Shown here one piece after another: positions 39,992 to 53,876 of a stretch of DNA of 64,000 nt. Location of the stretch: positions 63,674,001 through 63,738,000 of the forward strand of contig OX597817.1 in the NCBI GenBank assembly GCA_951406725.2, written 5' to 3'. The number at the start of each line of letters is the position of its first letter. Position 1 is the stretch's first letter. Position numbers and translations under genes: made by a program. This stretch comes from Octopus vulgaris (lineage: Eukaryota). The notes beneath the pieces are model-generated. The model was not told the DNA's origin. It saw only the letters and a program-made list of their open reading frames with translations, and searched no databases.

Positions 39992-40228
39992 GTCGTTTCC
40001 AATATTACATGATTTTAGCATTTTTGCTGCTCTTGCTGAGCCAGCTTAACTATGCCCTCTATTACGCAAATGCCAAACCAAAGGGAAACTTTCCGAGACT
40101 GGGGAAACGAAATGAACGATTGTTCAAGGAACATTATAACGCCATTCTTTCCAGTGCGACGTTCAATGATAAATTGTTACACCCGAAAGATATCTTCAGT
40201 AAGAAACAACAAGTATACAGCATTGTGG
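39992..40228 (+). CDS. Neuropeptide precursor main exon: signal peptide plus KPKGNFPRLamide (PRXamide-type)
   Basis: Acceptor tgttttttcag, ATG at 40009, MILAFLLLLLSQLNYALYYANA (hydrophobic core and A-x-A site), KPKGNFPRL-G-KR, and donor G|GTAAGT in phase 1. Confidence 0.8.
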
Positions 40229-40293
40229 GTAAGTATGACGAATTTCATATATTTCTGCGATTGTATGGTTTGCATGTGTAAGTATGTATGTAC

Positions 40294-40327
<34 letters not shown>

Positions 40328-40500
40328 TTGGCTTCGTGTTCCCCAGAATGAGTAACTATGTCCAGGTCGATGGTTAAATCTTGTCTGCTTAAAATTTTAC
40401 TTTATGATAATCGATGATGTAATCTTTTATGACTGCATTAAATTAATTAAATTCTGTCGAAACAGTTGTAAATTTTAAACGCCATTTGTTTTTATGCTTT

Positions 40501-40560
<60 letters not shown>

Positions 40561-40562
<2 letters not shown>

Positions 40563-40682
40563 ACCTGCTTGCTTAGCCAGCGTGGTGGCGTCATTTGAGG
40601 GCTAAAACAATGCAAAGCGCATTGTGACCAGCGATGTGTAGCAATATCTGATAGCCTGGTCGGTCACGAGGATCACGGTGAT
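40561..40682 (+). mobile_element. Short SINE-like 3' fragment between (TA)n arrays
   Basis: GC-richer block with sharp microsatellite borders (tagccagcgtggtggcgtcatttg...ggtcggtcacg). The family was recognised from memory only. Confidence 0.4.
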
Positions 40683-40690
40683 ATACATAC

Positions 40691-40755
<65 letters not shown>

Positions 40756-50202: not shown

Positions 50203-50535
50203 GAAGGCGCATGGCTCAGTGGTTAGAGCGTCGAGCTTGCGATTATGAGGTTGTGAGTTCGAATCCCGGACCGGGCTGCGTGCTGTGTTCTTGAGCAAGA
50301 CACTTTATTTCACGTTGCTCCAGTTCACTCAGCTGTAGAAATGAGTTGCGACGTCATAGGTACCAAACTGTATCTGCCGTTGCCTTTCCCTTGGATAACA
50401 CTAGTGGCGTGGAGGGGGGAGGCCGGTATGCATGGGCGACTGCTGGTCATCCATAAACAACCTTGCCCGGACTTGTGCCTCGGAGGGTAACTTTCTAGGT
50501 GTAATCCCATGGTCAGTCATGACAGAAGGTGATCT
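50203..50535 (+). mobile_element. tRNA-derived SINE with a V-domain-like centre
   Basis: A box tggctcagtgg, B box gagttcgaatccc, and tgtgttcttgagcaagacacttt...ctccagttcactcagctgta. A second copy lies at 58125-58440 on the minus strand. Confidence 0.75.
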
Positions 50536-50554
50536 CAGCAGTATATATATATAT

Positions 50555-51180
50555 ATAATAATAAATATTAGGGAATAAATCCAAAATTACAGGGAAAAAA
50601 TCAGATTTAGGATTAAATCCAATTTTATAGTAAAATATTATAAAATATTATTAGAGACAAAACCACTATTTTGCAAAACAAACAAGGAAAGACTTAATCA
50701 ATACATAAAATTTTAATAAATAGTCAAAAAAACCGCCACTACAATTGTTTCTTGTCTTGATCGACAATCTTCAGGTGGACTTCCAATCTAAAATATCAAT
50801 ATTTTAAAATATAAAAATAATAATTTTAAAATAATTAAAGTATGAATGAAAAAATATAAATATATAATCCATATATAACCTATATATAATCCATATATAA
50901 TCAATATATAAACAATATATAAACTAAAATAAACCTATCAACAATTAAATATAAAATATAAAATATAAAATATAAAATATAAAACAAAACAAAAAAATAA
51001 TAATAATATAATAATAAACTATATATACACCCATACACATATACCTAATTATATATAACCATATCTAACTACATACACTAAATCACACACCTATATATAT
51101 ATCCCTATACACACATAAAAACGTCTAGGCAACTATAAATAAATAAAATAGCTAAATACTTCAACACAATACTTATTCAT
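50555..51180 (-). mobile_element. Penelope-like pLTR with an intact minimal hammerhead at 50736-50778
   Basis: The minus strand reads ccac CTGAAGA ttgtc gatcaa gacaa GAAA caattg TA gtgg. All three stems pair and stem III is palindromic. Confidence 0.75.
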
Positions 51181-51786
51181 ACTCCCACACACACATGTAT
51201 GTATGTATATATGTATAGGAATGGATGTACAGTAGAATATAAAAGTTGTCTGTATGTGTGTATATTATACAAATATATTCATGTGTGCACAAATGTGTAT
51301 ATATAGATGTGTGCATATACGTGTATATGTGTACACAGGCATGTATGTGTGAGTTATATACGTGTGTCTCTGTGTATGCGCGCGCGCGCGTTTATGTTGT
51401 GTCGAACCAAATAAAGAATTCAAATTCTTCGGAGCTTTTTTTTTTTTTTTTTGATTGCTTTATATGTTTGTTTACAAATTTATAAATTCAGAACTGAAGT
51501 ATGCAATGCTGAAATGAGACAAATTTTAAAGTTTATAGATTTACATAGGTGTGTGTGTATGTGTTCTTGTGCACGCGTATACGAATATGTGTGTGCGTGA
51601 ACAAGCATACGTGTGTATATATGTGCATTCAAAAATTTTTTTTCGCAATTAAATCTGATGGGGAAGCAGTAACATTGATTATTATAAACAGCCGTAGACA
51701 AGCTATTTGGATTTTGTATGACTTCTTTATCGTAGTGCTGTTCTTGCCTCGTATTTTCTCTTTTGCTCATTTAAGCTTTGGAGGGT

Positions 51787-52085
51787 GGAGGCACATGGCC
51801 AAGTGATTAGAGCAGTGGACTCGCGGTCAAAGGATCGAGGGTTCGAATCTCAGACCGGGCGATGTGTGTGCTTATGAGCGAAACACCTAAGCTCCACGCA
51901 GCTCCAGCAGAAGGTAATGGCGAACTTCTGTTGACTCTTTCGCCACAACTTTCTCTCACTCTTTCCTCCTGCGTCTTGCAACTCACCCGCGACGGAGCGG
52001 CGTCCCGTCCAGGTGGGGAACCTATACGCCAAGGAAACCGGGAAACTGGCCCTTATGAGCCAGACATGGCTCGAGAAGGAACAAA
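51787..52085 (+). mobile_element. tRNA-derived SINE sharing its head with the 19083-19594 family but with a different 3' half
   Basis: ggaggcacatggccaagtgattagagcagtggactcgcggtc...cagaccgggcg...gagcgaaacacctaagctccacg. Confidence 0.75.
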
Positions 52086-52469
52086 TAAGCTTTGGGGGAG
52101 AAGTGAAAGATAGTGGAAGAGTGGCGAAATCTGTCATTATAGTGCAGAAACTGATGCCGATATATTTGTAAAATAATGTTTCTGAATTTCGTTTTGGGAT
52201 TTGGTTTCCAAGATTCTTTATGTAAGTTCGTGTGTTGAAGCATATTTTGTTGTATCTGGGGAGAGTCATTCTCTTTTAGCGCCTTATTATTTAACACACT
52301 CGCCAGTAAAGTTTTCACTCATTTATTTTCCCTAAGATTTTCGTTGCGTCTTGTAACCTTTCCAATAGTCGTTGACTCAATTTATTCAAGTCAAACTTAT
52401 CCATAAACAGGTATCTCAAATGAAGAACATTTTCTTTTAATAATTAATTATTAACTAGTAGTACCCATC

Positions 52470-52695
52470 AATCCATCCTTACCTTCTATTTCCGGGATGG
52501 TTGTGGGGCTAGAGTCCTTAGATATCTCTCCATATAGGGGCTTATCAGAAGCAATTGTCATCAGACTTTCCGGCTGGATTCCTAACAGTGACAAACTGAG
52601 ACTATGGATTTTATCAAACGATCACGTCCTTGGTCTACCCCTAAGTCTGTTACCAGTTGACTCGGCTTGAAGAATCTGCCTTGCGATTCTTTCTA
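52470..52695 (-). mobile_element. RTE-type LINE 3' fragment
   Basis: ERIARQILQAESTGNRLRGRPRT resembles the RTE C-terminal GxRxRGRPRxRW motif. Confidence 0.65.
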
Positions 52696-53796
52696 CAATA
52701 TTCTAGTAAAACCCATGGAAATTCTACAGGCCATTTTGTTGTATAGTGATATTCGGTAATAATATCCTGTCATTTCCTTCATAATCATTTGGTTAATCTC
52801 TTAGAAATACTGTATATTCTTTTCGGTAATGTTTTTCTCTTATAGCGTATTTTTTTTTCTGGCTTATGCAAAATATTCTTGCCTACCATCAATTATTCAT
52901 ATTTTGCCTTCTTTCTTCATTAACAATTCTCATTCTCTCTCTGTTAGCTTCAGCTTCATTGATCATCATTCTACATGTTTTTTCTTACATTAATTTCTTA
53001 CATTAATTTCATTATTTTCTTCTTGAAGAAAGGCTTCTAGTCATTCCTGATTTTTCTCTCTTTATTCCAAATTCTTAGTTCTCTTTGCCGTTTTCTCATT
53101 TGTCGTTTTCTGCTTATCTTATTATTTTTCATGAGAATGGCGTCACGAAATTATTTAATTTCTTAACTCTATTTTTTCTCCTACAAATGTATGTCCACCA
53201 CTTTTTGTCTAGTACATGAAGGCTATATTTCGTTGATTAGGTCAGAAAAATACTGAAATATGTTCATTTTTGCCTTCTGTGTTGGCAAAGTAAAATACAA
53301 TTATTTTCCTGTCCACATCAAATGTTTGCGTTATTTTTCAAATAAACAACTAAGGGTTTGGAAACTCAGAATTTCTGTCTATGAGACTAGAAACTCTAGT
53401 TTGTAAGATTGAAAATAGTATCAGTACAATTTGCAGGACATTTGTAGCTGGAGTTACATCCAAAACACTTTTACTATGGTTCTAAAACAAGATAAAAATA
53501 TTTCTCTTTGACAACTCGTCGCATATTCATTTTTTAGAGTTTTAATTCTCTCTGCATTCATTCACACTTGTATGTATAATTTCCTTATATTTGTGGTTAA
53601 ACAATGGTTAATTTTCAACAAGCAATCTATGTGGCCTTTGTGATGCATTATACTTGCATACAAAACGTTTGTTTCGTAGGAGACAGCAGCTTCGATCTTT
53701 ATCATTGGGCTTGTTATTTTACAGTCACGATTTTTGTTACTGTTAAATATTTAATAAAATTTATATTGAAATATTCTTTATTTTTGTATATTTCAG

Positions 53797-53876
53797 AAAA
53801 TCTCGATGCTCATCTTAGATCTCGTCTGCTTCAGTCCATCAGGAACCGTTTCCTTGGAAAGATAAAATTGGATTGA
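53797..53876 (+). CDS. Predicted last coding exon of the neuropeptide precursor ((E)NLDAHLRSRLLQSIRNRFLGKIKLD*)
   Basis: Acceptor ttctttatttttgtatatttcag is open in phase 1, matching the donor at 40228. The sequence is non-repetitive, and an AATAAA cluster lies about 160-200 nt after the stop. Confidence 0.55.

What the first reader, a model, noticed from the sequence alone, without database searches (positions are those of the whole stretch)
39992..53876. Neuropeptide precursor gene predicted to release KPKGNFPRLamide, a possibly undescribed cephalopod PRXamide
Seen: canonical splice sites, a signal peptide ending A-N-A directly followed by KPKGNFPRL, an amidation Gly and a KR cleavage site. 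A phase-1 intron of about 13.6 kb leads to an in-frame last exon, giving a 99-aa precursor from ATG 40009; internal exons may have been missed. Established: C-terminal PRXamide defines the CAPA/pyrokinin/ETH/neuromedin-U ligand group, FPRL/FPRVamide is CAPA-periviscerokinin-like, and mollusc SCPs end in FPRMamide and pleurins in YPRIamide. Inference: this single-copy peptide matches none of the molluscan peptides I recall and may be a new ligand for a cephalopod PRXamide receptor. Short exons among repeats are easily missed by annotation.
Basis: partly seen in the sequence, partly recalled or inferred. Interest (0 to 1): 0.85.

Follow-up and report, generated by a model that had tools for sequence, protein, structure and literature searches.

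The report
Octopus pleurin neuropeptide gene
This is a real octopus gene, so far labelled 'uncharacterized', that most likely encodes the octopus version of pleurin, a nerve-signalling peptide known from snails and clams; it fills a gap in a known family and is probably not a new kind of peptide.

Summary
The gene model holds. The two exons join into 99 residues identical to residues 31-129 of RefSeq 'uncharacterized protein LOC115211082' (Octopus sinensis), with near-identical records in O. vulgaris and O. bimaculoides and a 51% identical orthologue in Argonauta hians. Two details change. The start is probably in an exon upstream of the window (conserved MKFxxTL, 114 aa). The mature peptide is probably the 15-mer LYYANAKPKGNFPRLamide (40057-40101), not the 9-mer: conservation begins at LYY, right behind the likelier signal cut. 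Read so, it matches pleurin: one copy directly after the signal, aliphatic-aromatic-aromatic start, [FY]PR[LI]-G-dibasic end, and a phase-1 intron 26 codons before the stop (24, 26, 29 in scallop, Lingula, Notospermus pleurin genes). No database search gave a significant hit to a named pleurin, so orthology rests on motif, layout and intron. I found no cephalopod pleurin in print in nine searches, but could not see the cuttlefish neuropeptidome paper. Transcripts, cleavage and receptor were not tested. Verdict: new member of a known family; modest interest.

The parts
39962..39991 (+). Polypyrimidine tract and acceptor (CAG) of the upstream intron; phase 1 relative to the RefSeq isoforms; the upstream exon(s) were not found in the window
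   Evidence: (pyrimidine fraction 0.83, 99.6th percentile of 1423 YAG sites)
39992..40228 (+). Main coding exon (237 nt): rest of the signal peptide, mature peptide, amidation and cleavage site, spacer
   Evidence: tblastn 100% to P0003 residues 25-103
40009..40056 (+). Hydrophobic core and c-region of the signal peptide (Met16-Ala31 of the 114-aa isoform); ATG 40009 is an internal or alternative start
   Evidence: hydropathy and (-3,-1) scan; alignment; SignalP not available
40057..40101 (+).
40102..40110 (+). Amide-donor Gly and KR convertase site
   Evidence: invariant
40229..53796 (+). Phase-1 GT-AG intron, 13,568 nt, rich in microsatellites
53797..53876 (+). Last coding exon, 26 residues and stop; 17 of 26 identical to Argonauta
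53877..54080 (+). Probable 3' UTR with four AATAAA signals (54037, 54054, 54062, 54075); the end is inferred

Best explanation
The gene is the octopod orthologue of pleurin, in the ancestral single-copy layout. Shown: exon structure, open frame, conservation across Octopus and Argonauta. Inferred from established neuropeptide processing: the 114-aa precursor enters the secretory pathway, signal peptidase cuts after Ala31, a prohormone convertase cuts at KR, carboxypeptidase trims, PAM turns the Gly into an amide, and neurons release LYYANAKPKGNFPRL-NH2. Inferred from other molluscs: it acts on a rhodopsin-type PRXamide/NMU/ETH-group GPCR with IP/Ca signalling, as a central neuromodulator of motor or withdrawal circuits; Tyr2/Tyr3 may be isomerised to D-residues as in Aplysia pleurins, which would switch receptor activity. 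Orthology about 0.85; the 15-mer boundary about 0.8; receptor group about 0.65; D-residues about 0.25.
For: Peptide: aliphatic-aromatic-aromatic start, Lys7, [DN]-[YF]-P-R-[IL]-G-dibasic end, as in pleurins; the motif is in 7 of 7 stored proteins, which are all this one gene. Layout: one copy directly after the signal, which PMC8557429 calls the ancestral pleurin state. Intron: phase 1, 26 codons before the stop; 24, 26 and 29 codons in the 3 pleurin splice patterns seen (scallop, Lingula, Notospermus). Signal cut: 5 residues behind the h-region in both Octopus and Argonauta, against 11 for the A-N-A cut; identity is 15 of 31 in the signal and 5 of 6 in LYYANA. No cysteine domain, no repeats. 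The protein-language-model search puts it among single-peptide prohormones of several families (best 0.91), which supports 'neuropeptide precursor' but no family. Receptor: Aplysia pleurins are among the peptides shown activating ApPRXa-R1/R2, D-pleurins inactive (bioRxiv 10.64898/2026.07.28.741146); D-residues at positions 2/3 (PMC12368835).
Against: No search gave a significant hit to a named pleurin: 3 hits of 1.84 billion at E<=0.001, all octopod; 3 of 81 candidates; 1 of 1. The comparison with pleurins is by eye, not scored. The peptide departs from the usual pattern: Tyr for Phe at position 2, Ala for the usual Thr at 4, one extra residue, basic instead of acidic middle. The N-terminal triplet alone is weak evidence: 3232 of 100000 shuffles of the upstream residues keep the motif. 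Phase-1 introns are common, and the flanking residues are not alignable with confidence. The RefSeq isoforms have a further intron in the signal-peptide region, whereas PMC8557429 describes a single intron. The EF-hand-like tail of gastropod, Nucula and neomeniomorph pleurins is absent (no Pfam hit), though scallop, Lingula and nemertean pleurins lack it too. -3 Asn at the preferred cut is less typical than A-N-A. The slug NmU receptor answered only to three short PRXamides, not to the other slug PRXamides tried (PMC7749107; the list of peptides is in a figure I did not see). No squid, cuttlefish or Nautilus orthologue was found.
Confidence: 0.82

Rival explanations
1. An octopod-specific PRXamide gene unrelated to pleurin, releasing the 9-mer KPKGNFPRLamide after an A-N-A cut; the likeness to pleurin is convergence on a shared receptor motif.
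For: A-N-A is a textbook signal-peptidase site and is kept as A-N-S in Argonauta. Only octopod hits. PMC6425005 recovered pleurins from bivalves, gastropods and neomeniomorphs only.
Against: The A-N-A site lies 11 residues behind the h-region; LYYAN is invariant between Octopus and Argonauta while the signal is half changed; the restored N-terminus matches the pleurin start; intron phase and place agree.
Confidence: 0.1
2. A truncated or derived paralogue of another molluscan PRXamide gene (sCAP or myomodulin-2).
For: sCAPs also follow the signal directly and can end FPRL/YPRL; myomodulin precursors carry PRXamides.
Against: sCAP precursors carry a six-cysteine tail; this precursor has no cysteine behind the signal. 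Myomodulin precursors are multi-copy LRL/LRMamide; this has one peptide. sCAPs are about 9 residues.
Confidence: 0.04
3. A salivary-gland product that mimics a prey neuropeptide, as octopod SF1 peptides do, and not an endogenous brain peptide.
For: Octopods do evolve neuropeptide mimics de novo (bioRxiv 10.64898/2026.02.02.703354); hits are limited to octopods; tissue of expression is unknown here.
Against: That study screened gland transcripts with 33 molluscan peptide models, pleurin among its listed abbreviations, and names mimics only of stanniocalcin, luqin, myosuppressin, tachykinin and neurotensin. The precursor is 98% identical between O. sinensis/vulgaris and O. bimaculoides, and one gene per species was seen, unlike a diversifying venom family (inference).
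Confidence: 0.04

Closest known systems
Single-copy pleurins of bivalves (Mizuhopecten AXN93514.1, Nucula, Crassostrea), neomeniomorphs, Lingula and nemerteans (PMC8557429, PMC6425005, PMC8398477)
   Same: One 14-15-residue PRXamide directly behind the signal; aliphatic-aromatic-aromatic start; Lys near position 6-7; [DN][YF]PR[IL]-G-dibasic end; precursor of 105-130 aa; phase-1 intron 24-29 codons before the stop
   Different: Tyr2 and Ala4 for Phe2 and Thr4, one extra residue, basic middle; long intron (13.6 kb against 0.3-4 kb); a further intron in the signal-coding part of the RefSeq isoforms; no significant whole-precursor similarity in the searches run
Multi-copy gastropod pleurins (Aplysia Q8MMK6, Helix CAA63082, Lottia, Deroceras)
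   Same: First copy sits behind the signal; Helix copy 1 ends YPRL-GKR like the Argonauta peptide; aromatic residues at 2/3, the D-isomerisation sites in Aplysia
   Different: Three to four copies and an EF-hand-like tail in gastropods; one copy and no recognisable EF-hand here
Molluscan sCAP and myomodulin-derived PRXamides
   Same: C-terminal PRXamide; sCAP also follows the signal
   Different: No six-cysteine tail, no repeats, longer peptide
Arthropod ETH and CAPA/pyrokinin peptides
   Same: PRXamide end; PMC8398477 notes that ETH and pleurin share the signature and the place behind the signal
   Different: Orthology unproven; PMC6660194 found no eth ligand outside panarthropods; the end here is NFPRL, not FXPRL

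Membership tests
Pleurin | Signal peptide followed directly by the active peptide | tested here: met
   Hydropathy and (-3,-1) scan puts a cut 5 residues behind the h-region, directly before LYY, in Octopus and Argonauta; SignalP itself not run; a second candidate cut (A-N-A) exists
Pleurin | C-terminal [YF]PR[ILVMF]-amide followed by a dibasic site | tested here: met
   FPRL-G-KR (Octopus), YPRL-G-KR (Argonauta)
Pleurin | 12-15-residue peptide starting aliphatic-aromatic-aromatic | tested here: met
   LYY start, 15 residues; compared by eye: 6-7 of 14 positions identical to scallop, Lottia, Nucula peptides; Phe2 and Thr4 replaced
Pleurin | Phase-1 intron in the C-terminal part of the precursor | tested here: met
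   Phase 1, 26 codons before the stop; 24, 26, 29 in the 3 splice patterns seen; the Lottia pattern was not among the places shown
Pleurin | That intron is the only one in the coding sequence | tested here: inconclusive
   RefSeq isoforms add an intron after codon 9 or 24; if translation starts at ATG 40009 it lies in the 5' UTR, but MKFxxTL is conserved in Argonauta
Pleurin | Scored similarity to named pleurin precursors | tested here: inconclusive
   No pleurin among hits; thresholds for 1.8-5.8 billion sequences are too strict for a 15-residue motif; Pfam gave no family
Pleurin | Shared synteny with bivalve/gastropod pleurin loci | not testable with these tools
   No genome held for this window; no neighbouring gene recognised in the 64 kb
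Pleurin | Expression in central neurons; activation of a PRXamide-group GPCR | not testable with these tools
   Needs tissue RNA data, peptidomics and a receptor assay
sCAP | Six-cysteine C-terminal domain | tested here: not met
   No cysteine behind the signal in P0003-P0007; feature stated in PMC5996578
Myomodulin | Multiple LRL/LRMamide copies | tested here: not met
   One G-KR site only
Pyrokinin (FXPRLamide) | Phe five residues from the C-terminus | tested here: not met
   End is N-F-P-R-L: Phe is fourth from the end; motif as in the listing
ETH | Activation of an ETH-type receptor | not testable with these tools
   Lophotrochozoan ETH receptors are listed as orphans in PMC8557429

The most novel reading that the evidence does not exclude
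It is the first cephalopod pleurin, reshaped in octopods into a basic, Tyr-Tyr-headed single peptide that is the missing ligand of the orphan molluscan ETH-type receptor, with D-Tyr isomerisation as an on/off switch; or, less likely, an octopod-born PRXamide gene that converged on pleurin. Either would tie a moulting-hormone receptor lineage to an octopus brain peptide.
Probability: 0.15. Interest if true: 0.6.

Novelty: new member of a known kind. Interest (0 to 1): 0.3.

Why it matters
It names an 'uncharacterized' octopus gene and, if the orthology holds, removes an apparent absence: the mollusc-wide survey PMC6425005 lists pleurin for bivalves, gastropods and neomeniomorphs but not cephalopods. 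The corrected 15-residue sequence matters in practice: a receptor screen or a peptidomics search with the 9-mer would lack the aromatic head that carries the D-amino-acid switch in Aplysia pleurins. A one-gene, one-peptide pleurin is a clean reagent for the open question of what activates molluscan ETH-type receptors, though scallop or oyster pleurin would serve as well. It is not a new signalling system.

Tried and rejected
Own-genome search: none held, so no synteny, paralogue or receptor search. Sequencing runs: no RNA holder listed; 20 of 24 rows hold the exon, none on record as RNA; not used as evidence. No reads were laid on the locus, so the junction was not seen in reads. Protein searches for decapod, Nautilus or named pleurin relatives: 1 of 1 candidate (an unspliced gene call), 3 hits, 3 of 81, 1 of 1; none outside octopods. 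Pfam: no family above cut-off for P0005, P0004. ESM Atlas: mixed prohormone families, best 0.91 and 0.88, no pleurin cluster named. Upstream exon in the window: no 5-mer of the X2 start, only chance 5-mers of the X1 start, 1 two-mismatch DNA match on 0.37 expected. A second peptide ending FL-G-K in the last exon was considered and rejected: not kept in Argonauta. P0002's longer N- and C-termini are intron read-through. Literature: 'FPRLamide' 1 paper, an insect one; accession numbers 0 papers; exact motifs and 'octopus pleurin'/'cephalopod pleurin' 0 papers; 'pleurin' 21 papers listed, one on cephalopods, where it is an abbreviation in a list of models; supplements of PMC9712504 (3 files, 1 unreadable) and PMC6660194 (8 files) gave 0 hits. 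Earlier findings of this scan: nothing in 3 look-ups. No structure prediction was run: a short prohormone with a 3-row alignment would not be informative.
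Full report
Observation. An acceptor CAG ends at 39991, ATG stands at 40009, the frame reads a leucine-rich stretch and then KPKGNFPRL-G-KR, and a GTAAGT donor follows at 40229. The intron is phase 1 and 13,568 nt long; the last exon gives 26 residues and a stop at 53874-53876, followed by four AATAAA within 200 nt. 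The join gives 99 residues. The window is AT-rich and full of microsatellites; no other protein-coding gene was recognised among 114 long stop-to-stop frames, most of them repeat translations (0 of 4 tested frames hit Pfam).

What it is in databases. A phmmer search of 1.84 billion representatives gave 3 hits. One is an unspliced call; the others are spliced. The exact look-up names them: RefSeq 'uncharacterized protein LOC115211082' isoforms X1 (129 aa) and X2 (114 aa) of Octopus sinensis, the X2 sequence also recorded for O. vulgaris; LOC128247622 X1/X2 of O. bimaculoides; and a hypothetical protein of Argonauta hians. The 99-aa join equals residues 31-129 of X1 letter for letter. All 5 spliced records join the two exons directly, so no internal exon is modelled. 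These are gene models, not reads; I have no direct view of the junction in RNA. The X2 start MKFxxTL is conserved in Argonauta, which makes it the likely true start; it lies in an exon that is not in the 40 kb upstream within the window. ATG 40009 is then Met16.

The peptide boundary. Octopus and Argonauta share 15 of 31 residues in the signal, 12 of 15 in LYYANAKPKGNFPRL, 3 of 3 in GKR, 11 of 39 in the spacer and 17 of 26 in the last exon. A simple (-3,-1) scan finds a cut 5 residues behind the hydrophobic core in both species (NYA|L, NEG|L) and the A-N-A cut 11 residues behind it. Established knowledge of signal peptides favours the shorter distance; Asn at -3 is less usual than Ala, and SignalP was not available, so I put the 15-mer at about 0.8.

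Family. Read as a 15-mer, the peptide fits pleurin. The supplement of PMC6425005 lists first-position pleurins such as VFYTSSKANDYPRI (Lottia) and LFYTDSKENDYPRI (Nucula); scallop has IFYTNKEGNDFPRI. By eye the Argonauta peptide shares 7 of 14 positions with each of the first two, the Octopus peptide 6 of 14 with scallop, and most other pairs are conservative (L/I/V, Y/F, N/D). PMC8557429 argues that one copy directly behind the signal is the ancestral pleurin layout and uses a shared phase-1 intron as its test of orthology. In the 3 splice patterns I saw, that intron lies 24, 26 and 29 codons before the stop; here it is phase 1 and 26 codons before the stop. sCAP (six cysteines) and myomodulin (repeats) do not fit.

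Against this. No search returned a named pleurin: (3 of 81 candidates; 1 of 1) gave octopod records only; Pfam gave nothing above cut-off; the Atlas ranked unrelated prohormones first. The comparison is unscored. The head motif alone survives 3232 of 100000 shuffles of the upstream residues. The peptide has lost the usual Phe2 and Thr4 and is basic where pleurins are acidic. The RefSeq isoforms have a second intron where PMC8557429 describes one. The EF-hand-like tail of gastropod pleurins is missing, but so it is in scallop, Lingula and nemerteans. Synteny could not be tested. Together I put orthology at about 0.85.

How it most likely works. Shown: an intact, conserved secreted-type precursor with one amidation site. 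Inferred from standard prohormone processing: signal cleavage, convertase cut at KR, trimming and amidation give LYYANAKPKGNFPRL-NH2 (MH+ 1750.98). [quoted passage not shown] A 2026 preprint shows dose-response curves of two Aplysia PRXamide receptors to pleurins among other peptides, and no activity of D-type pleurins; the slug NmU receptor responded to three short PRXamides only. Aplysia pleurins are isomerised at residues 2 and 3 (PMC12368835), which in the octopus peptide are both Tyr. Lophotrochozoan ETH-type receptors are orphans and pleurin has been proposed as a ligand to test, while PMC6660194 found no eth ligand outside panarthropods. So the likeliest action is neuromodulation through a PRXamide-group GPCR; which one is open.

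Novelty. [quoted passage not shown] None of the 38 of 42 'pleurin' places seen in the supplement of PMC8557429 is a cephalopod. Nine paper searches found neither the peptide, its accession numbers nor a cephalopod pleurin. Gaps: the library lacks most subscription papers, among them the Sepia neuropeptidome (seen only as a reference); supplement files 2 and 3 of PMC6425005 are cut; the venom preprint built a pleurin model and looked for orthologues in O. vulgaris among six molluscs, and its closed supplement may already hold this sequence. So 'unreported cephalopod pleurin' is likely, not shown.

What I saw of each paper. PMC6425005: passages, supplement passages, one supplement part. PMC8557429: passages and supplement passages. 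PMC8398477: passages and section 2.5.3. PMC7749107: passages and one section. bioRxiv 10.64898/2026.07.28.741146: passages and one section. bioRxiv 10.64898/2026.02.02.703354: passages. PMC12368835, PMC5996578, PMC9815951: passages. PMC6660194: passages and a blank supplement search. PMC9712504: a blank supplement search. Processing enzymes and signal-peptide rules are from my own knowledge.

Verdict. A real gene, modelled but unnamed in four octopod genomes; most likely a divergent single-copy pleurin. New member of a known kind. Interest 0.3; the boldest reading not excluded (ligand of the orphan ETH-type receptor with a D-residue switch, or an independent octopod PRXamide) has probability about 0.15 and would deserve 0.6.

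Noticed in passing
window 22415-22575 (+): Full-length U6 snRNA match (Rfam RF00026, 105 bits, model 1-105) without a terminal T run, fused directly to a 55-nt tail that has 5 partial look-alikes elsewhere in the window and then an A-rich stretch: looks like a U6-retroposon chimeric retrocopy, probably inside the gene's long upstream intron.
   Followed up: partly
window 53797-53876 (+): The last exon is more conserved between Octopus and Argonauta (17 of 26) than the spacer (11 of 39). By eye its N-x-D-x-H-L start recalls the EF-hand-like loop of Lottia pleurin and its D-A-H-L-R-x-R-L-L recalls the last exon of Lingula pleurin; it may be a decayed EF-hand or a functional C-terminal peptide.
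   Followed up: partly
window 1-39991: Neither of the two alternative first coding exons of the RefSeq isoforms was found in the 40 kb upstream, so the first intron is probably longer than 40 kb; isoform X1's start (MCSS...) is not shared with Argonauta and may be non-coding in practice.
   Followed up: partly
window 13637-14152 (+), 15587-16117 (-), 38386-38754 (+): Non-repeat frames of 120-175 residues that read like fragments of retroelement proteins (impression from recall); no Pfam hit at E 0.01.
   Followed up: partly
P0004 (Argonauta orthologue), residues 56-91: The spacer has gained His-rich and Asn/Asp-rich insertions absent from Octopus, probably from trinucleotide repeat expansion.
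   Followed up: no
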